64,000 nt of DNA from positions 52,204,001 to 52,268,000 of the forward strand of contig OX597816.1 in assembly GCA_951406725.2 (NCBI GenBank). Direction: 5' to 3'. This DNA comes from Octopus vulgaris. Its lineage: Eukaryota. Each line of letters begins with the position of its first letter. The stretch's first letter is position 1. Positions 1,414 through 54,408 of this stretch are shown here, one piece after another. The notes under the pieces were generated by a model that saw nothing but the letters and a program-made list of their open reading frames with translations, had not been told where the DNA came from and ran no database searches. Both the position numbers and the translations under genes were made by a program.

Positions 1414-2388
1414 TTATATCAGTGGTTCGGTTTTCTCTTGTTCTTCTAACTCTTTTTCAGGGCCTCGTGGGGGAGTCTGACGTAGGCCCTCGAATATATA
1501 TGGAGATGTCACATCCAATCTAAGTGGGCCTACGTCATGGAAGAATTCTGACTTTATCCGCCCGTAATCCTTCCGGCCTATTCTGTAAATTACAAAGTCG
1601 TTTTTTTTCACTACTTTCTCCACTTTGGCCATGGCTGCCAACACGTTTCCGAGTCTGCTATTTGCTGCCTTTACGGCCATATACGAGTTCATTGACTCTC
1701 TTTTCTTTTTTAAAATTACTCTGGGAGGGGTGGTTTCCGTTTTTCTTTTTTTTTTTCCGGTAATTTTTGCCCACCCCTCCTCATCTATCTTTTCCACGCT
1801 CTTTTTTTCCTCCGCCGCTGGTTCTGCTGTCACCGTCACCTCCACACCTTCAGTCTTCCCTTCTGGGCCGTCCGACGCTGCTTCTGGTGACACATTATCT
1901 TCTTTTTCTTTTGGCTTAGGTGCTTCCTGCGGTTTGGGTTGGGGTTGGCATTCCGCCCTTACATGACCCTTCTTGCCGCAGCCGAAGCACCTCGGCTTCC
2001 TGCCCTCCACGAAAACTGTTATTTTCTCGTCTTCACTAATCTTTACCGTTTCTGGAATTTCTTCCAGTGTTTGCACCTCCGCCTGAATGGCTATCACTAT
2101 TTTCTGCCCTTTCCAAAACTCCTCTTCCTCCACTGTGGCCTGGAGGATGTTTATTTTTTCCTCCAGGCCTACCATCACTGCTGCCACCAGACATTCTGCA
2201 TCTGCCTCTGGCGGTATGTTGTTCATTGAAATTTTCGACGTCCTTTTTCCTTTATACAATGGTAGTAAGACAATGTTTTCTGCTTTGATCGGCTCCATCG
2301 ATAGTTTTTTCGCTATCTCCTCCGTAGTAAAACGCACCTCCACTGTGCCGTATCTTTTTCCTCTGTTTATATACGTTATTTTATCCAT
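1414..2388 (-). CDS. ORF1 (gag-like, CCHC zinc knuckle) of the Tx1-like element, C-terminal portion
   Basis: 324-aa ORF with CFGCGKKGHVRAEC (CX2CX4HX4C). It stops 9 nt before the ORF2 ATG and is in the same frame. Confidence 0.9.
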   Translation of the reverse strand: MDKITYINRGKRYGTVEVRFTTEEIAKKLSMEPIKAENIVLLPLYKGKRTSKISMNNIPPEADAECLVAAVMVGLEEKINILQATVEEEEFWKGQKIVIAIQAEVQTLEEIPETVKISEDEKITVFVEGRKPRCFGCGKKGHVRAECQPQPKPQEAPKPKEKEDNVSPEAASDGPEGKTEGVEVTVTAEPAAEEKKSVEKIDEEGWAKITGKKKRKTETTPPRVILKKKRESMNSYMAVKAANSRLGNVLAAMAKVEKVVKKNDFVIYRIGRKDYGRIKSEFFHDVGPLRLDVTSPYIFEGLRQTPPRGPEKELEEQEKTEPLI

Positions 2389-2769
2389 AAAAGGTTTTAG
2401 ACAAAACTCTATTTTTTTTTTCTTCGATTTTTTGGATCATTTTTGTCGTTGTGTCGTAAGTTTTATATATTATTCTTTTTTTTCTATATCGTCATGTTTT
2501 TGTATGTTTGTGGCCACAGTCACTTCTGTGCCCTCTTTTTTTACACAGTCTGCAAATTTTTCCAAATTTTCTACATTTATTTTTTTAATCTTTTTCCCAG
2601 CCACTTCAGCGAATTTTTTCGCTGGAGTTGATGCTGGTACTGGTTTTTCCATTTTCTTGGGCGACGCCGCCTCTTTTTTCTTCGGCGACAACGCCTCTTT
2701 TTTTCTTGGCGACAACGCCGGGTATTCATCCTCGCTCGTCACGGGCGAATAAGAGATGGGGGACTCCAT
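2389..2769 (-). pseudogene. N-terminal part of the same ORF1, separated by two compensating homopolymer frameshifts
   Basis: ORF 2470-2778 (ATG at 2769) is in the same frame as 1414-2388. Adjusting the runs at 2476-2483 and 2412-2421 by one base each gives ...DIEKKRIIYKTYDTTTKMIQKIEEKKIEFCLKPFMDKITY, which aligns with the second ORF1. Confidence 0.75.
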
Positions 2770-2985
2770 CTTGAACAAATGGCTTTAACAAGCCTTTGGT
2801 AAATCCAAATTAATTGTAGTTTTCCCCCACGGAGGGGGGGAACACCAACGCGAAGGCTGACTTCGTCAGTTAGACAACAATAAACAAAACAGGTAGACAG
2901 ACAGTATAGAATAACAAAGATAACAATACGAGAGCAAAAATATATCAACTTACTAATAAACGCAAAAATAGCTTGGAGCCATGTG

Positions 2986-4749
2986 ATTTTATTATTACCC
3001 ACAAGGGGCGAACATAGAGGGGACAATACAATCGGGGAACTTAAAATAAGAAAGCGAATGACAAGAAAAGGAAAAAATAAAAGTAAAAAATGACATATGA
3101 AAGAATATTTACAATGAGATGTAAATGCCCACTCGATCCCCGGAATCGAGAGGTTACATTTTCGTCACATATATTTCACAATATTTTCTTTTTTCTCTTC
3201 TTTCTTCTCTCTCTTCTCACAGTTCTATACGTATTCCATGATAGTTTTCAATTCTCTAAAGTCCATCACTGAGCCCTCAGGCAGCCGCTCTCTCACTCGA
3301 ACACTCGTGTAAAATGTTACACTCTCACCGGCAGCTCTGAGGAACTCAGCGACTCTTTCTTCGGGGATTAGAGCAGTCTCCTGCCACTGATCGGTCATCC
3401 TGTTGACCCACACATGTCCCTCCGTATTACTTGTCAAATCCTTCATTTCAGGGCAGAAATGGAAGGTTACTAACTTGTAGAAGCAGTAATCTTGTTTCCG
3501 TCCTACGTTTTCCTTCATTTTTCTTTTCGGGCTTATTTCTTCCTTGTTCTCCTCTCTTTGTTTCTCTCTTTCTCTCTTTTTGCCTTCTTTTCTTTCTCCT
3601 TCCTTCTCTTGTCTTTTTGGTTCTTTGTCTGTTCTCTCTTTCTCTCGTGTTTTATGTTCCTTTTCTTTTTCTTTTTGTGTGCCGTCTTTTCTTTTCGTTT
3701 GATTCTGATCTCTCTCTTGTTTTTTTCCTGTTGTTTCTTTTTCCTTTTTTTTTTCCTGACTCTGTTTTGGTTCTATTTCTTTCTTTTCTTTTATTTCTTT
3801 TTCCTTCATTGACTTATTATTTCCTTTCTCTTGTTGTTTTGTTTCCTTTTCTATGTTTTCTTTTTCATTTACCGTGTTCTTCTTTTCTTCGAGTTCCTGC
3901 TCGCACTCCGCTACGAATTCGTATAACGGGCACTCTTTTTTAATGTGCCCCCTTGTCCCGCACAAGTAGCAGTTTGGCTTTCTTCCCTCTACAATTACAC
4001 TGAGGGTTTTCTCATCTTCAATTTCTATTCTGTAGGGGAACCTTTCAATGTCCTCTTTTGTGGCCATCAAACACAGTTCTACCCCATATCCTCTCCAGTT
4101 TATCGCGTTGGACTCCTTAAAGGATCCCACCTCCACTTCCTCTTCTGCTGCTCCTAGAATAGCTGTTGCCAGCCATTCTGTTTTTACTTCTGGGGGTATA
4201 TTCGGGATTTTAACCCGGACCCCTCTTCTTCCCTTGTATGAGGGCCACATTATAAATGTTTCCGCTCTTAGTACAGTGGTAGCCAGTGAGGCTGCAATTT
4301 CTTCCGTTGCACATCTCACCTCCACCGTACCAAATTTCTTGCCTCTACTCACGTAGGTCGATTTCCCCATTATGTCTCCCAGACATTTTTCGATTTCTGC
4401 TATCTCCACTCTTGCCAGTTTCTTTGTATTTTTGTCTTGTGTTCTATATGTTACAGTCTTGTTTTCTTTGTCCTCTTTTGCTTTCGCGGGGGGATTAGCT
4501 TCACGCTATCACCCTCCCTTTTGAATAGCTTTTAATATTCTTTGAGTTTACTCTTCTCAAAGAAAACATCCTTCACGATTATCGACGAATCATTATTTTT
4601 CTTTCCCGTGACCCCCGCGTAAGTCGCCATGACTAGAGGGTCAATTCACCTTCTTCGGAAGGTTTCCACACGTGGAGGCAAACGCCTCGCGCGATAATAA
4701 TCAATTTACACAACAAAATTTCACTGTCTAATCACAGATAACAACACGT
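2986..4749 (-). mobile_element. ORF1-only non-autonomous Tx1-like retroelement (HAL1-like)
   Basis: The unit has a 5'UTR, ORF1 and a ~240-nt 3'UTR ending ...gccccttgtgggtaataataaaat, with no ORF2. It is flanked by identical ATAGCTTGGAGCCATGTG at 2968-2985 and 4750-4767. Confidence 0.72.
3225..4409 (-). CDS. Second ORF1/gag-like CCHC protein with a long Lys/Glu-rich region; the true start is probably the ATG at 4630, across one stop and one frameshift
   Basis: Contains CYLCGTRGHIKKEC. TYVSRGKKFGTVEVRCATEEIA aligns with TYINRGKRYGTVEVRFTTEEIA, and VEGRKP precedes the knuckle in both ORF1s. Upstream MATYAGVTGKK...KREGDSV aligns with FAEVAGKK...KKEGTEV. Confidence 0.88.
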   Translation of the reverse strand: MEIAEIEKCLGDIMGKSTYVSRGKKFGTVEVRCATEEIAASLATTVLRAETFIMWPSYKGRRGVRVKIPNIPPEVKTEWLATAILGAAEEEVEVGSFKESNAINWRGYGVELCLMATKEDIERFPYRIEIEDEKTLSVIVEGRKPNCYLCGTRGHIKKECPLYEFVAECEQELEEKKNTVNEKENIEKETKQQEKGNNKSMKEKEIKEKKEIEPKQSQEKKKEKETTGKKQERDQNQTKRKDGTQKEKEKEHKTREKERTDKEPKRQEKEGERKEGKKREREKQREENKEEISPKRKMKENVGRKQDYCFYKLVTFHFCPEMKDLTSNTEGHVWVNRMTDQWQETALIPEERVAEFLRAAGESVTFYTSVRVRERLPEGSVMDFRELKTIMEYV

Positions 4750-5098
4750 ATAGCTTGGAGCCATGTGTTCAAATCTTCTTTTTTCTCTACATTGTATAGA
4801 CAATAGTCTTTTCTTTAATTTAATTTTTTATTATCCATCTGGACTATTCCATTCCTGCACGCTAATTTTATTTTTAATTTATTCCTATTCATGTGAAACC
4901 ACTTATTCAAGTTCAAGTCATTGATGCAATTTTATACCAATTGCTATTTTTACTTTTGTTATGGTATTTTAGTCTGATTTTAATTATTACTTACTACATA
5001 TAATTCAATTGTTATTATTATTTTTATTGTTAAAGTGAAAGTATCTGACATAAAATAGAGAAACGTTTTTGTTTCACTTTTAACACGTAATACTGAAA

Positions 5099-11077: not shown

Positions 11078-13147
11078 TGAATCCACTCCATCAATGTTGA
11101 TCTGAACAACTTGTCTTGAACAAACAAACTCATTCTCTCCAGAATCATCTATCTGGAATGTAGGAAAAATTCTTCTGAAACATTAACCAGAGTTAGTATT
11201 CTTACACTGAACTAAATAAACTGTTGGGTTTTTTAAAGTTAAGAGCAACGTCACAGATAATTAAGTTGATTACCTCCACCAGCCAGTTTCAGCTCATAAT
11301 TATTTTAACTCCAGAATTATGGGTAAAAAATTGACTTCAGCTGTATTTGAACACAGATTCAGCAAAAGCACTTATACATACACGTTTTGTCTGTTTTTAA
11401 TACCTACATACTTGTGAGTTAATGGAATCAGTAGCGTGACTAGAGGATGATAGAGGAAGTGATCGCACTCTGGAGACACATTCTTCAAATATGATACCTT
11501 TTAAATAATTTTTAACTAATTATCTGTCTTCCGAATCTCAAATTTTATTGGCATTTTATTTACTTCATTGCATAGTCTTTGCAAGAACTTACTGGACTCA
11601 TTGCTTTTATTCTACCAACATCCTGTTGTTCTAAATTGTGTGATTAACCTTCTGTGAAGCATATCAGGCCGCTGGCTCCAAGGGAACCATAACAAATCAT
11701 AATATCAGAATCTCCTCTCTGACGCTAGACGCTTTGTGGGGTTTCATCTTTTCCTATCGCTATTCACAACCCATACATATATGTATTATATATGATGACT
11801 ATATCAATGAAGCATGAAAATAATGAATGTAGGATACAGCCATGTACATTATAGCTAATGGAATATTTAGCTTAATGTAAGCGAAACAAACGTCCATTTA
11901 CGTAACTAATTTGTTGATAAACGAAAGTCAAGAATGAATTAAATATCATTCCTCAAACCAAGTTATTTCAATATATACTTATCGCACGCTGATGCTGCTT
12001 GTTGAAGCAAAAGCAAATAACTCTTTTATGAATTTCAGGTACACACATCTACCTCATAAACTACCAGCATAGAATTTATGCTCGTCTAGTAGTAAGATAT
12101 TGTCCAATATATATTGCAAAGGGAATTTTAAGTTGCGTTTTCGTTTCTTTTTATGAGATCGTTGTATCATGTCTAATGTTAAGAATGCCTAGAAGGCATC
12201 ACAGATGGCTCGCTTTTACATCTGATAAGAAATGCCTTGGAGAAAAACAATAAGAATAACCGTCTGTTTAGAACAGAAAGAAGATTAGATAAGTTACAAA
12301 GAGAGAAAAATGTATTGTCAAAATATCACAGACTGGACGCCTACTCATTATTGTCTAAGCACACAAGGCACATGCATCTGATGGAATTCTCTGAAGCGCT
12401 GCTACCTACTTTCAGCTCATGAGATTAAGACGATTCCCTAACCTGGGGTTGTTCCTAATGTAAATGCCTTTAAAAAGTTGCTAATGTCTATTTTTAGATA
12501 ATAGAGATAGTAACAATAGTCTGATTAAGGCTGCACAGTTGCCGAGGAATTGGAGCACCATGGGGATATCATTCTGTATACTATTGTGCAGTGGATGAAG
12601 ATGATATGGTCAGATTATGTACAATCAAAGACACACATGGAAAATAGCCAATAGAACTCTATTCCTGCTTTATGAAACATCTCGTACGTATCCTTATTAA
12701 GTTAGGCCCTCATCAACAAAATCTTAAAGATAATTCTGACGGTGTTTACAAAATATGAATCTAGATGATGTCTTGCAAACAACTTACATTTAAAGTAATT
12801 AAAACTTTATTCGAGAATCAAATTAATAGAGTTTGTGAAATAAATGGATACTTGCTGGTTTAATTTCCAGGTAGAAATATGCTTTCATTAGCCTGTTGGC
12901 TTTTAATAAATAGGTTGCGTGTCTGTAGGTACCCTACACTAATCTATTAAAATTACAAACAAAATTGATAAGCTTGAAACAGTAGAACATTCTAAAATAA
13001 AGGGAGACAGATATTTTCCACACTAAATTTCACTGGTTCAAAAACAGAAATGACTTTACTGGAATTGTAACAGTAAGAAAATAAAAGAGAAAAATAGAAT
13101 ACTCAGCATCCCACACTAGCCTTCTATTGTGTACTCTCTTTTCCTAA

Positions 13148-13631
13148 AGCAGCGAGCTGGCAGAAACGTTAGCGCGCCGGACGAAATGCTTAGCGGCATC
13201 TCGTCTGCCGTTACGTTCTGAGTTCAAGTTCCGCCGAAGTCGACTTTGCCTTTCATCCTTTTGGGGTCGATAAATTAAGTACCAGTTACGCACTGGGATC
13301 GATGTAATCGACTTAATCCCTTTTTCTGTCCTTGTTTGTCACCTCTATGTTTAGCCCCTTGTGGGCAGTAAAGAAATATATATTGTGTACTCTCTTTTCC
13401 TAACCTTGCAATAGGTATCTCGTCTGCCGTTACGTTCTGAGTTCAAGTTCCGCCGAAGTCGACTTTGCCTTTCATTCTTTTGGGGTCGATAAATTAAGTA
13501 CCAGTTTCGCACTGGGGTCGATGTAATCCACTTAATCCCTTTTTCTGTCCTTGTTTGTCCCCTCTATGTTTAGCCCCTTGTGGGCAGTAAAGAAATATAT
13601 ATTGTGTACTCTCTTTTCCTAACCTTGCAAT
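13148..13631 (+). mobile_element. SINE family 1, tail type A, with a local tandem duplication
   Basis: Head, body and tail A are present. The TSD tattgtgtactctcttttcctaa occurs at 13125-13147 and 13381-13403, and again after the second body. Confidence 0.9.
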
Positions 13632-27632: not shown

Positions 27633-28037
27633 TCCTTTCTGCCATAGGCACAAGACCTGAAAGTTTTTTTTTTGGGGGGGGGGACTAGTCGTTTACATCG
27701 ACCCGAGTGTTTCCCCGGTATTTAATATATCAATTCCGAAAGGATGAAAGGCAAAGTCGAATTTGAACGCAGAACGTAACGACGGGCGAAATACCTATGT
27801 CTTTACTGTCCACAAGGAGTTATACACAGAGGGGACAAACAAGGACAGGCAAAGGGATTAAGTCGATTACATCGACACCAGTGCGTAACTGCGTAACTGG
27901 TACTTTATTTATCCACCCCGAAAGGATGAAAGGCAAAGTCGACCTCGGCGGAATTTGAACTCAGAACGTAGCGGCAGACGAAATACTGCTAAGCATTTCA
28001 TCCGGCGTGTTAATGTTTCTGCCACCTCACCGCCTTC
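27633..28037 (-). mobile_element. SINE family 1 nested dimer (tail A copy inside a tail B copy)
   Basis: The junction is at 27795/27796. The outer TSD aagagttaaaataa lies at 27619-27632 and 28040-28053. Confidence 0.82.
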
Positions 28038-31860: not shown

Positions 31861-32193
31861 TATTTCTTTCTTTATTTGCTCACAAGGTGTTATACACAGA
31901 GGGAACAAACAAGGACAGACAAAGGGATTAAGTCGATTACATTGACCCCAGTGCGTAACTGGTACTTAATTTATCGACCCCGAAAGGATGAAAGGCAAAG
32001 TCGACCTCGGCGGAATTTGAACTCAGAACGTAGCGGCAGACGAAATACCTATTTCTTTACTACCCAGAAGGGGCTAAACATAGAGGGAACAAACAAAGAC
32101 GGACAAAGGGATTAAGTCGATTACATCGACCCCATTGCGTAACTGGTACTTTATTTATCGACCCCGAAAGGATGAAAGGCAAAGTCGACCTCG
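31861..32193 (-). mobile_element. SINE family 1 dimer (tail A plus tail A)
   Basis: The junction cgaaatacc|tatttcttt is at 32049/32050. Confidence 0.85.
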
Positions 32194-35114: not shown

Positions 35115-35156
35115 TATTTCTTTATTGCCCACAAGGGGCTAAACATAGAGGGGACA
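35115..35156 (-). mobile_element. 42-bp solo tail-A retroinsertion with a 19-bp TSD
   Basis: ataagtattcc(a/t)gcatatt at 35096-35114 and 35157-35175 flanks tatttctttattgcccacaaggggctaaacatagaggggaca. Confidence 0.8.
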
Positions 35157-35572
35157 ATAAGTATTCCTGCATATTGCACTTGCATTTCTTTATTGTTAAC
35201 GCGAATGTGTTGACAGTGTGTGTGGTTAGGGCACTGCACTAACGATTTCGAGTTCGTGGTTTCAGTTCCAGAACCGGGTGGTGTGTTGTGCTCTTGGGAA
35301 AAAAAATTCATCTAACGTTGATTTGTGATCACCTTGACGCCTGACTGTTGGCGCATCTTGAAACTGTTCAGGCAACGTCTAGTTGGTGAAAGGAGAGAAA
35401 TAATGTACACTACTACAAACATTTGATCACTATAAACAAATAATTTGTGCAGGTCGTTCAACAAAGCTTGAACTCACATGCGCCGTCTTCGACAGGAGAT
35501 TCCATCATGTAAAGAGAGATAGAGAGAGAGTGAGAGAGATATGAATGTGTGTGATATATATATGTAAGTGTG

Positions 35573-35805
35573 AAGGCGACGAGCTGGCAGAAACGTTAGC
35601 ACGCCGGGCGAAATGCGTAGCCGTATTTCGTCTGTCTTTACGTTCTGAGTTCAAATTCCGCCGAGGTCGACTTTGCTTTTCATCCTTTCGGGGTCGATAA
35701 ATTAAGTACCAGTTTCGCACTGGGGTCGATGTAATCAACTTAATCCCTTTGTCTGTCCTTGTTTGTTCCCTCTATGTTTAGCCCCTTCTGGGTAGTAAAG
35801 AAATA
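35573..35805 (+). mobile_element. SINE family 1, tail A, full length
   Basis: aaggcgacgagctggcagaaacg...gccccttctgggtagtaaagaaat. Confidence 0.9.
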
Positions 35806-39332: not shown

Positions 39333-39334
<2 letters not shown>

Positions 39335-39555
39335 TGGCAGATACGTTAGCCCGCCGGGCGAAATACTCTGCGGTATTTCGTCTGCCGTTACGTTCTGAGT
39401 TCAAATTCCGCCGAAGTCGACTTTGCCTTTCATCCTTTCGGGGTCGATAAATAAAGTACCAGTTTCGCACTGGGGTCGATGTAATCGACTTAATCCCTTT
39501 GTCTGTCCTTGTTTGTCCCCTCTATGTTTAGCCCCTTGTAGGCAATAGAGAAATA
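39333..39555 (+). mobile_element. SINE family 1, tail A
   Basis: Matches 35573-35805. Confidence 0.88.
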
Positions 39556-48744: not shown

Positions 48745-49100
48745 GTGCCAAGCTGGCAGAATCGTTAGCACACCGGGCGAAATGTTTAGCGGTATTTCGT
48801 CTGTCTTTACGTTCTGAGTTCAAATTCCGTCGAGGTCGACTTTGCCTTTCATCCTTTCGGGATCGATAAATTAAGTACCAGTTACGCACTGGGGTCGATG
48901 TAATCGACTTAATCCATTTGTCTGTCCTTGTTTGTCTCCTCTGTGTTTAGCCCCTTGTGGGTAGTAAAGAAATAGGTATTTCGTCTACCGCTACGTTCTG
49001 AGTTCAAATTCCGCCGAGGTCGACTTTGCCTTTTATCCTTTCGAGGTCGATAAATTAAGTACCAGTTACGCAATGGGGTCGATATAATCGACTTAATCCC
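48745..49100 (+). mobile_element. SINE family 1 dimer
   Basis: The junction aaagaaata|ggtatttcgtct is at 48974/48975. Confidence 0.85.
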
Positions 49101-50034
49101 TCGACCGTGATTCCGCTGCTCTAACCACTAGGCCATGTGCCTCCACTTGAAATAATGTTAGTTGGTACAAATCTTGTCTAAAACTATATTCACACCCAAA
49201 ATAACACGCAGAATGTCGATAGCATTTTGACTGTACTTATAAGACTGGGAAATTCGTAAGAATTGTAGCATATTGTTTTCAAGGTAGAACTAGGAGATAA
49301 AATTATAAATATTAGGCTTAAAAAACCCCATGGATGGAAAAAAGTCGAAGGCTATCAGTGGGACACGAACCTACTTATTTTCATTTTCTATTCGTTTTTT
49401 TTTTAAACTCACCGTTGTATACGCTGTCATGTACAACTTTATGTATACTTCGAGTTCTACCGTAAAATTTTATTGAATTTGTTTTTCTTTTTGGAAACAC
49501 CATCCCATCTCTTGAGCACTGACATTTTTTATGCCAAGAATATGATATTTGCATTGTAATTTGAGATGCCAACCATCAATTCAAAATACATTTGTAAGCA
49601 AAATATTCTATATGAAGACATACTCGAAACAGTACTGCCGTAATTTTTTTTTCATCTATCTTTGGTTTACAAACAATAAAATTCAGTATCGAAAAATAGA
49701 GTTCAAGTGTAATTTTTGGAATGCTTTCAGATGAATCAATAGTTTATATTAATACAAACAAGAAGAGAAAGAAAAGTCAAGAAATGAGATTTCTTCACTG
49801 AGTAAAAAAGCTAAAAGTATTTCTCCAGATGTCAAGCAGTAAATCTTTTCACTTTTTAAATAAATGGAACAACAGAGACTAACAGTGTCTTATACACTGT
49901 CGCAATATAGTTTACATAAACAATCGATTCTAAAAAAAAGGGGGAGGGTTACAAAAATAAATGTAGCTTTTTTCCGTTGAATAAAGCAAAGTGGCTGCTA
50001 CAGCTTTTACCTCGCGGTTGCAATAAATCGTATT

Positions 50035-50270
50035 TGTATTTATTTATTGCCCACAAGGGGCTAAACACAGAGGGGACAAAAAATGACAGACAAAGGGGAT
50101 TAAGTCGATTACATTGACTCCAGTGCGTAACTGGTACTTAATTTATCGACCCCGAAAGGATGAAAGGCAAAGTCGACCTCAGCGGAATTTGAACTCAGAA
50201 CGTAGCGGCAGACGAAATACCGCTAAGCATTTCGCCCGACGTGCTAACGTTTCTGCCAGCTCACCGCCTT
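50035..50270 (-). mobile_element. SINE family 1, tail A, full length, with an imperfect TSD
   Basis: Flanked by ttgcaat(a/c)aatc(g/c)tatt. Confidence 0.88.
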
Positions 50271-50559
50271 TTGCAATCAATCCTATTCTGCTTAATGAAA
50301 AATGTTGCAGCTCTTCTCAGCATGCTGTATCATACTCATCTTTTATACCATAAAACGTGTAACGATTCATTTACTATAAATAGTAAGGTTTAATATTTTT
50401 AATCAAGTCGTTCTCTATAGACTACAAAGAGTAAGGCTCTAATTTTTATTCGCCTTAATCCAGAAGACCTAAAATCTTTCCCAATAAGTTCCACCTGTCA
50501 AAAGTTTTCTGCACGAAGTGACACTTGAATGGCGTAAGTTTGAGACAACCATATTCCTG

Positions 50560-53418: not shown

Positions 53419-53652
53419 AAAGGCGGCGAGCTGGCAGAAACGTTAGCGCGCCGGGCGAAATGCTTAGCTGTATTTCGTCTGTCGTTACGTTCTGAGTTCA
53501 AATTCCGCCGGGGTCGACTTTGCCTTTCATCCTCTCGGGGTCGATAAATAAAGTACCAGTTACGCACTGGGGTCGATGTAATCGACTTAATACCTATGTC
53601 TGTCCTTGTTTGTCCCCTCTATGTTTAGCCTCTTGTGGGTAATAAAGAAATA
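53419..53652 (+). mobile_element. SINE family 1, tail A, full length, with a 17-bp TSD
   Basis: ggtatcgtcgtcgtcgt occurs on both sides. Confidence 0.9.
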
Positions 53653-54004: not shown

Positions 54005-54408
54005 TTTTACTCTTTTACTTATTTCAGTCATTTGACTGCGGCCATGCTGCAGCACCGCCTTTAATCGAGCAACTCGACCCCGGGACTTATTCTTTTGTAA
54101 GCCCAGTACTTATTCTACCGGTCTCTTTTGCCGAACCGCTAAGTAACGGGGACATAAACACACCAGCATCGGTTGTCAAGCAATGCTAGGGAGACAAACA
54201 CAGACACGCAAACACACACACGCATATATATATATATATATACGACGGGCTTCTTTCAGTTTCCGTCTACCAAATCCACTCACAAGGCTTTGGTCGGCCC
54301 GAGGCTATAGTAGAAGACACTTGCCCAAGGTGCCACGCAGTGGGACTGAACTTGGAACCATGTGGTTGGTAAACAAGCTACTTACCACACAGCCACTTCT
54401 GCGCCTAT
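54005..54408 (-). mobile_element. SINE family 2
   Basis: Full-length match to the family. Confidence 0.88.

What the first reader, a model, noticed from the sequence alone, without database searches (positions are those of the whole stretch)
2986..3030. 3' end of the Tx1-like unit equals tail A of the dominant SINE
Seen: the minus-strand end ttgtcccctctatgttcgccccttgtgggtaataataaaat nearly matches SINE tail A, ttgtcccctctatgtttagccccttgtggg(c/t)a(a/g)taaagaaat (copies at 13.3k, 13.6k, 35.8k, 39.5k, 48.9k, 50.0k, 53.6k). TSD lengths also agree, at about 17-23 bp. Known: SINEs share 3' ends with stringent partner LINEs, usually CR1, L2 or RTE, whereas mammalian L1 relies on poly(A). Inference: a three-tier system of autonomous Tx1, ORF1-only derivative and SINE, all using one ~45-nt recognition signal.
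Basis: partly seen in the sequence, partly recalled or inferred. Interest (0 to 1): 0.75.

Follow-up and report, generated by a model that had tools for sequence, protein, structure and literature searches.

The report
Octopus half-LINE and SINE share tail
In an octopus genome, a multi-copy jumping gene that encodes only its RNA-binding protein ends in nearly the same 46 letters as a young, abundant short repeat (SINE), so both likely borrow the copying enzyme of a Tx1-type retrotransposon, although that element's own end could not be read.

Summary
The match is real. The last 46 nt of the unit at 4767-2986 (minus strand) are 83-89% identical to nine SINE tails (local score 64; 200 shuffles, max 30). 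The host is an octopus. The unit is an ORF1-only element of a young family, with 20 gene models on at least 8 scaffolds. It is bounded by an exact 18-bp repeat and abuts an L1/Tx1-type element with ORF1 and ORF2. The tail has no duplication of its own, holds the only AATAAA of the 3' UTR, and carries three states seen in 0 of 11 SINE tails, so it probably belongs to the element. Tail A marks a young SINE subfamily with 16-23-bp target duplications.

The decisive test could not be run: the 3' ends of the autonomous element and of other ORF1-only copies were not seen. Best reading (0.55): tail-sharing half-LINE and SINE, both mobilised by a Tx1-type enzyme. This is a new variant of a known kind.

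The parts
2986..3031 (-). 46-nt 3' terminus of the ORF1-only unit, homologous to SINE tail A; small predicted hairpin followed by AATAAA
2986..4767 (-). ORF1-only (half-LINE) unit, 1782 bp including the 5' 18-mer; 239-nt 3' UTR; no ORF2
3225..4630 (-). ORF1 of the ORF1-only unit. Likely start ATG at 4630; two frame changes near 4535-4490 in this copy; long open frame 4505-3225; CCHC knuckle
4750..4767 (-). 18-bp direct repeat, 5' copy (TSD or conserved 5' end)
2968..2985 (-). 18-bp direct repeat, second copy; also the first 18 nt of the autonomous-type element
1414..2769 (-). ORF1 of the neighbouring two-ORF element (one frameshift near 2470-2430); 39% identical to the unit's ORF1 over 155 aa
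1..1407 (-). ORF2 (APE-type endonuclease and start of the RT region), runs off the window; L1/Tx1 group
13147..13597 (+). Tail-A SINE with 23-bp TSD, followed by a second unit (body, tail A and copied flank)
27687..28036 (-). Tail-A SINE followed by a tail-B part; 16-bp flanking repeat around the composite
31867..32193 (-). Two tandem tail-A SINE parts; no TSD found
35115..35157 (-). Tail-only SINE-type insertion (43 nt) with its own 19-bp TSD
35572..35805 (+). Full tail-A SINE
39333..39555 (+). Tail-A SINE in (AT)n
48751..49101 (+). Tail-A SINE followed by a second partial unit; no TSD found
50037..50271 (-). Full tail-A SINE, 17-bp TSD with 2 mismatches
53420..53652 (+). Full tail-A SINE, 17-bp TSD

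Best explanation
The 46 nt at 3031-2986 end an ORF1-only L1/Tx1-type element of a multi-copy octopus family and match the tail of a young SINE subfamily, and both RNAs are likely copied into the genome by the reverse transcriptase of an autonomous Tx1-type LINE that would end in the same sequence. Shown: the match, the anatomy, the multi-copy ORF1 family, the 16-23-bp flanking repeats, and an old (tail B) and a young (tail A) version of one SINE body. Inferred: the SINE gained tail A by a tail swap from a LINE-side 3' end; the enzyme binds the small GCCC/GGGY hairpin and starts target-primed reverse transcription at the A-rich end; the ORF1-only element supplies its own RNA-binding protein, as proposed for HAL1, HeT-A and Ag-Sponge; sequential insertion at one site, or a template jump between two RNAs, made the head-to-tail junction at 2985/2986.
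For: Match far above chance. The tail lies inside the 18-bp repeat that bounds the whole unit and has no repeat of its own (longest upstream/downstream match 6 nt). It holds the only AATAAA in the 239-nt 3' UTR (sequence printed). Three states (a substitution and a 1-nt deletion in the bulge, and a substitution 3' of the stem) occur in 0 of 11 SINE tails, and all three lie outside the predicted pairs. A 1-nt insertion at the 5' edge is also absent from the SINE rows. 90.6% of 96 cells pair in the 8-pair hairpin, against 35-57% when slid. ORF1 family: 20 O. vulgaris-type gene models on 8 scaffolds, 19 of 20 with the same C-terminus. ORF2 next door is closest to human L1 ORF2p among solved structures, and database relatives are named 'Transposon TX1'. 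TSDs of 16-23 bp exceed the 7-15 bp given for RTE and fit or exceed the 7-18 bp given for L1 (PMC6007223, passage); SINEU-3/Tx1-Mar has a 16-bp TSD (PMC4494074, passage). Tail-A bodies differ by 8.5% (21 pairs) and tail-B bodies by 27% (36 pairs). O. vulgaris has 13 recently active L1-Tx1 families (PMC13282606, Table 1).
Against: No autonomous 3' end and no second ORF1-only 3' end was seen. There is no compensatory change (0 of 8 pairs; 0 of 4), and folding is no better than shuffles (z from -1.5 to +0.2 for 8 sequences). The 90.6% pairing is expected in part because the structure was taken from these sequences. The unit's tail differs from the SINE majority at 6 of 42 columns while SINE copies differ at 0-12, so divergence alone does not separate it from a SINE copy. 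A tail-only SINE insertion with nearly the same 5' boundary exists at 35.1k. Long TSDs are not exclusive to tail A: 1 of 14 other copies examined has 15 bp, and the 27.8k composite ends in tail B. Four of 11 tail-A ends abut GGTAT, while the unit abuts CACAT, so a common target preference is not evident. The neighbour's ORF1 is only 39% identical, so it need not be the partner. None of 80 distant L1/Tx1 loci carries the tail (best score 26; opposite-strand control max 29).
Confidence: 0.55

Rival explanations
1. The tail is family-wide in the ORF1-only element but was captured from the SINE or from a LINE of another clade (RTE, CR1, Dong-R4). Both non-autonomous elements then parasitise that other enzyme, or a relaxed L1/Tx1 enzyme that needs no specific tail, and autonomous Tx1 elements do not carry it.
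For: RTE, Dong-R4 and CR1 each cover more of the O. vulgaris genome than L1-Tx1 (PMC13282606 supplement). Most known SINE/LINE pairs involve CR1 or RTE, and only 3 of 58 have L1-clade tails (PMC3472496 part 1; PMC3747384 section 7). No covariation. The autonomous 3' end is unseen.
Against: TSDs of 16-23 bp are longer than the RTE range. The unit's ORF1 is homologous to that of the L1/Tx1-type neighbour (E 2e-39), and the two sit joined without a spacer.
Confidence: 0.22
2. One-off chimera: the reverse transcriptase began on a SINE RNA, copied about 46 nt and switched to the ORF1-only RNA, or a tail-only SINE landed at the junction. Other copies would end differently.
For: A tail-only SINE insertion with nearly the same 5' boundary exists at 35115-35157. 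Tail-A SINEs are abundant and young. A template switch would also give one TSD around the whole unit.
Against: No TSD around the tail alone. Three private states are absent from 11 SINE tails. Without the tail the unit would have no AATAAA.
Confidence: 0.18
3. The tail is the remnant of a target: the element homes into the SINE just before its tail.
For: Tx1-clade elements often target other repeats (PMC4494074 passages; PMC1919474 passage). Notes on other genomes raise the same idea (unchecked).
Against: No SINE head or body lies upstream of the unit (score 18; 212 of 300 shuffles as high; no hit). The 18-bp repeat encloses the tail.
Confidence: 0.05

Closest known systems
L1-clade SINE/LINE tail pairs: maize ZmSINE2/ZmSINE3 with LINE1-1_ZM; Chlamydomonas SINEX-3_CR with L1-1_CR (Ohshima 2012, PMC3472496, part 1 of 3 read; PMC3747384, passages and section 7)
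   Same: About 45-50 nt shared 3' end between a tRNA-type SINE and an L1-group element, with a predicted hairpin.
   Different: Those are plant and algal and the autonomous partner was seen, with compensatory changes. Here the host is an animal, the match is to an ORF1-only element, there is no poly(A) and no covariation was found.
SINEU with Tx1-Mar in crocodilians (Kojima 2015, PMC4494074, passages and section 16 read)
   Same: SINE proposed to ride on Tx1-clade machinery; 16-bp TSD; tandem insertions sandwiching one TSD.
   Different: That link rests on a shared target and shared 5' heads; the paper found no LINE sharing the SINEU-1 3' end. Here the link is the 3' end and a shared target is not evident.
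ORF1-only non-autonomous LINEs: HAL1 (L1), HeT-A (Jockey), Ag-Sponge (CR1) (PMC5786205, one passage; PMC5753468, passages)
   Same: Encodes ORF1p only, multi-copy, needs another element's ORF2.
   Different: The passage names L1, Jockey and CR1 origins, not Tx1. Here ORF1 has a CCHC knuckle and is only 39% identical to its neighbour's, and the element shares its end with a SINE.
Tail replacement in SINE superfamilies, e.g. MetaSINEs (PMC4824008, passages)
   Same: One SINE head and body found with different tails of different ages (tail B old, tail A young), read as a change of partner.
   Different: Partners identified there are L2 and CR1, or unknown.

Membership tests
Stringent SINE/LINE tail pair | SINE 3' end homologous to the 3' end of a LINE-type element | tested here: met
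   83-89% over 40-47 nt to the ORF1-only unit
Stringent SINE/LINE tail pair | The same 3' end on an autonomous, ORF2-bearing LINE | not testable with these tools
   Off the window; no genome held; tail pattern found 0 times in three collections; no close relative fetched
Stringent SINE/LINE tail pair | Conserved stem-loop with compensatory changes | tested here: inconclusive
   Hairpin can form in 90.6% of 96 cells, but 0 of 8 pairs change on both sides, and only 12 close sequences were available
Stringent SINE/LINE tail pair | Tail required for trans-mobilisation | not testable with these tools
   Needs a retrotransposition assay
ORF1-only non-autonomous LINE (HAL1-like) | ORF1 present, no ORF2 before the 3' end | tested here: met
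   239 nt from the stop codon to the end
ORF1-only non-autonomous LINE (HAL1-like) | Multi-copy family | tested here: met
   20 ORF1 gene models on 8 scaffolds
ORF1-only non-autonomous LINE (HAL1-like) | Other copies also lack ORF2 | tested here: inconclusive
   Runs of consecutive gene accessions suggest arrays of ORF1-only units, but the DNA was not seen and RT genes may be masked in the annotation
ORF1-only non-autonomous LINE (HAL1-like) | Derived from the adjacent autonomous element by deletion | tested here: not met
   ORF1 39% identical over 155 aa, C-terminal halves unrelated
Tx1 clade (as against other L1-group clades) | APE endonuclease and RT of the L1/Tx1 group | tested here: met
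   Pfam Exo_endo_phos; best solved match human L1 ORF2p, 388 bits against 134 for R2
Tx1 clade (as against other L1-group clades) | RT phylogeny groups with named Tx1 elements | not testable with these tools
   No named Tx1 references were available; only automatic names 'Transposon TX1' on distant hits
Tx1 clade (as against other L1-group clades) | ORF1 with RRM-type domains and a CCHC knuckle (criterion recalled, from no call) | tested here: inconclusive
   CCHC passes the Pfam cut-off in the unit's ORF1. Atlas look-alikes for the O. sinensis relative P0181 are CCHC/RRM/ZCCHC3-like at 0.89-0.92. The model of P0181 is poor (pLDDT 47), with no Foldseek hit at E<=0.001
Tx1 clade (as against other L1-group clades) | Target-site preference | tested here: inconclusive
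   Head-to-tail junction with an 18-bp repeat and likely arrays; the target was not identified
tRNA-derived SINE | Pol III A and B boxes, short length, TSDs, many copies | tested here: met
   Box-like motifs visible in alignment (box consensus recalled); about 235 bp; 31 hits besides the unit's tail. ARAGORN and Rfam named no tRNA among the rows shown

The most novel reading that the evidence does not exclude
An animal Tx1-clade retrotransposon uses stringent 3'-end recognition, and one 46-nt signal serves three tiers in octopus: autonomous Tx1 elements, a separate long-diverged lineage of ORF1-only elements that stack head-to-tail with them, and a young SINE subfamily that expanded after swapping its old tail for this one.
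Probability: 0.5. Interest if true: 0.62.

Novelty: new variant of a known kind. Interest (0 to 1): 0.46.

Why it matters
SINE partners in the L1 group are rare: 3 of 58 pairs in Ohshima's survey, all in plants or algae. The one Tx1-SINE link I found in print rests on shared targets, not tails. A tail-sharing Tx1 pair in an animal would support the idea that stringent recognition is ancestral in the L1/Tx1 group. It would also name a candidate driver for part of the octopus SINE expansion (SINEs are 11.7% of the O. vulgaris genome, PMC13282606) and give a 46-nt signal to test in a trans-mobilisation assay. If the autonomous element lacks the tail, it is an ordinary half-LINE with a borrowed end.

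Tried and rejected
No whole genome is held. Tail patterns gave 0 hits in metagenome, viral and prokaryote collections. An unnamed ORF2 that is 51% identical (P0017, on a 3091-bp contig) could not be located as DNA. A metagenome scan gave 80 distant loci (23-35% identical), none with the tail. A 13-nt match to the 18-mer in L048/L049 lies inside ORF2 and was rejected as chance.

Sequencing runs: 20 of 24 listed hold the stretch or part of it, and no RNA holder was listed. No read or contig pile-up was obtained, so the ends of other copies stay unread. A phmmer search with the 60-aa frame across the tail found 0 proteins, and none of 186 stored proteins holds a 6-aa tail peptide. Neither blank is informative.

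A first pair count used a misregistered structure and was replaced. The idea that the 89-aa exon spliced onto some gene models is a paralogous ORF1 C-terminus failed: 243 of the 498 shuffles reported scored as high. 5' UTR homology beyond the 18-mer was not significant (38 of 500 shuffles). A 3-mismatch hit of the 18-mer in the head of the other SINE family (54348-54364) has different flanks and was not pursued. Homing into the SINE was rejected. The ORF1 structure model was too poor to use.

Earlier-scan look-ups by place, sequence and a first word set were empty. Ten paper searches showed no report of a Tx1 element sharing a tail with an octopus SINE. Repbase, Dfam, the Zenodo library of PMC13282606, SINEBase sequences and Ohshima and Okada 1994 could not be seen and may already hold this pair.

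Full report
Setting. ORF1 hits are named Octopus vulgaris, the top six at 84-100% identity, so the window is octopus DNA. On the minus strand two elements lie head to tail. The first, 4767-2986 (1782 bp), has a 137-nt leader, an ORF1 with a CCHC knuckle and a 239-nt 3' UTR, and no ORF2. The second starts at 2985 and has ORF1 (2769-1414) and an ORF2 with an APE-type endonuclease that runs off the window. ORF2 is closest to human L1 ORF2p among solved structures (profile 388 bits against 134 for R2), and distant relatives carry the automatic name 'Transposon TX1'. L1/Tx1 group is shown; Tx1 proper is likely but was not tested by a tree. Both ORF1s have small frameshifts in this copy.

The observation. 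The last 46 nt of the first unit match nine SINE tails at 83-89%. A 16-nt probe finds 11 sites against 0.04 expected. The local score is 64 against a maximum of 30 in 200 shuffles. Homology stops at about 3031; the SINE body against the rest of the UTR scores 24, reached by 25 of 500 shuffles. Seven of nine tail-A insertion sites have flanking repeats of 16-23 bp, one of them uninformative because it lies in (AT)n; two have none. At random positions such scores arise in about 2% of 300 trials. The unit itself is bounded by an exact 18-bp repeat found only twice in the window.

Does the tail belong to the element? It lies inside the 18-bp repeat and has no repeat of its own (longest match 6 nt). 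It holds the only AATAAA of the UTR (sequence). Three states are absent from all 11 SINE tails, and all three fall outside the predicted pairs. No SINE body lies upstream of the unit, so it is not the remnant of a SINE target. Against this, a tail-only SINE insertion with its own 19-bp TSD and nearly the same 5' edge exists at 35.1k. The unit's 6 differences from the SINE majority also lie within the 0-12 seen among SINE copies. A template switch would give the same picture at one locus. I put a one-off chimera at 0.18.

The ORF1-only family. Twenty gene models carry this ORF1 on 8 scaffolds of different length, and 19 of 20 share its C-terminus. Six of seven consecutive accessions on the largest scaffold encode it in five distinct sequences of two subtypes, and four shorter runs exist. 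I infer head-to-tail arrays; the DNA was not seen. The unit is not a deletion product of its neighbour. The ORF1s are 39% identical over 155 aa with unrelated C-terminal halves, and the leaders do not align past 18 nt. The neighbour's ORF1 has its own relatives in O. vulgaris and O. sinensis at 56-88%. The 18-mer is either a target duplicated by sequential insertion, as for tandem SINEU-3 copies sandwiching a TSD (PMC4494074, passage), or a conserved 5' end with the junction made by a template jump. Either way the tail came in with the unit.

The SINE. One head and body of about 175 nt occurs with two tails. Seven tail-A bodies differ by 8.5% on average and nine tail-B bodies by 27%, so tail A marks a young subfamily, probably formed by a tail swap as described for MetaSINEs (PMC4824008, passages). 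Long TSDs are commoner with tail A but not exclusive: 1 of 14 other copies has 15 bp, and a composite ending in tail B has 16 bp. Lengths of 16-23 bp exceed the 7-15 bp given for RTE and fit or exceed the 7-18 bp given for L1 (PMC6007223, passage).

Structure. A hairpin GCCC/GGGY with a 5-nt loop and a lower TGTT/AATA-type stem can form in 90.6% of 96 cells, against 35-57% when slid. However, 0 of 8 pairs change on both sides and the shuffle control is not exceeded; RNAalifold gives 4 pairs with none compensatory. Folding z-scores run from -1.5 to +0.2. The structure is plausible and unproven.

What could not be shown. The autonomous 3' end lies outside the window and no genome is held. Collection scans found no tail, no locus for the 51%-identical ORF2 P0017 and only distant loci without the tail. 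No read pile-up was obtained. The claims that autonomous copies and other ORF1-only copies end in tail A therefore remain untested.

Mechanism. Most likely both RNAs present the same hairpin and A-rich end to the ORF2 protein of an octopus Tx1-type LINE, which nicks the target with a 16-23-bp stagger and reverse transcribes in place (0.55). Rivals are a family-wide tail captured from the SINE or another LINE clade and absent from autonomous Tx1 (0.22), a one-off chimera (0.18) and SINE homing (0.05). One point against a single enzyme: 4 of 11 SINE ends abut GGTAT while the unit abuts CACAT.

Comparison with print. Ohshima found L1-clade tails in only 3 of 58 SINE/LINE pairs, in maize and Chlamydomonas (PMC3472496, part 1 of 3; PMC3747384, passages and section 7). 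In the review all 5 occurrences of 'Tx1' lie outside the pair table and 'octopus' does not occur. SINEU was tied to Tx1-Mar by target and 5' heads, with no LINE sharing the SINEU-1 3' end (PMC4494074, passages and section 16). ORF1-only LINEs are known from the L1, Jockey and CR1 clades (PMC5786205, one passage; PMC5753468, passages). The 2026 O. vulgaris annotation lists 80 L1-Tx1 families, 13 recently active, and gives no SINE partner in the two of three parts and the supplement that I read (PMC13282606). I saw passages only of PMC4758252, PMC8967140, PMC3531059, PMC5804259, PMC1919474 and PMC9004415; none names this pair. Ten searches are listed under Tried and rejected. Repbase, Dfam and the Zenodo library were not visible and may already contain it. 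Earlier scan notes on other genomes (unchecked) raised the SINE-homing rival and one similar protist candidate.

Verdict. Observation confirmed; interpretation partly supported. This is a new variant of a known kind, interest 0.46, rising to about 0.62 if autonomous Tx1 copies prove to end in tail A (probability about 0.5).

Noticed in passing
O. vulgaris gene models: The ORF1-only family occurs as runs of consecutive accessions (CAI9715245-249 and 251; CAI9739099-101; CAI9729052-053; CAI9719596-597; CAJ1099379-380). The first run mixes two sequence subtypes, which suggests head-to-tail arrays built by repeated insertion.
   Followed up: partly
P0164, P0167 and fused models P0166, P0170, P0171, P0005, P0007: An unrelated multi-copy 89-aa ORF is spliced by gene callers onto this ORF1 at five loci, and its variants appear to track the ORF1 subtypes. 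It is absent from the window and has no convincing Pfam or Atlas match. It may be another unit of the arrays or part of a longer element.
   Followed up: partly
window 27793, 32047, 48977, 53652: Four of 11 tail-A ends are followed by A plus GGTAT. Three continue into a second SINE unit that starts at the same internal position, and the fourth sits in non-SINE DNA with the same TTAGC-GGTAT context. This points to a preferred site or to priming by RNA-DNA complementarity.
   Followed up: partly
window 13147-13630: The second SINE unit carries a copy of the first unit's TSD and 3' flank, as if a read-through RNA had re-inserted at its own locus, or a local duplication began at the same internal site.
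   Followed up: no
window 35115-35157: Tail-only insertion of 43 nt with a 19-bp TSD, starting within about 4 nt of the 5' edge of the SINE/half-LINE homology.
   Followed up: partly
window 8.3k, 14.2k, 27.3k, 28.6k, 32.4k, 37.7k, 40.5k, 45.6k, 60.3k: Older copies of the same SINE body with a different tail (B); bodies 27% apart, against 8.5% for tail A. The partner of tail B is unknown.
   Followed up: partly
window 4750-4767 and 2968-2985: The 18-mer contains a YY1-like motif (consensus recalled, from no call), as at the 5' end of mammalian L1, so it may be a conserved promoter end and not a TSD.
   Followed up: no
window 15.1-15.5k, 19.3k, 28.8-29.2k, 36.1-36.5k, 40.2k, 52.9k, 54.0-54.4k, 56.6-57.1k, 57.8-58.2k, 63.7k: A second SINE-like family of about 450 bp with an internal microsatellite, 11 BLAST hits at 10 places.
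   Followed up: no
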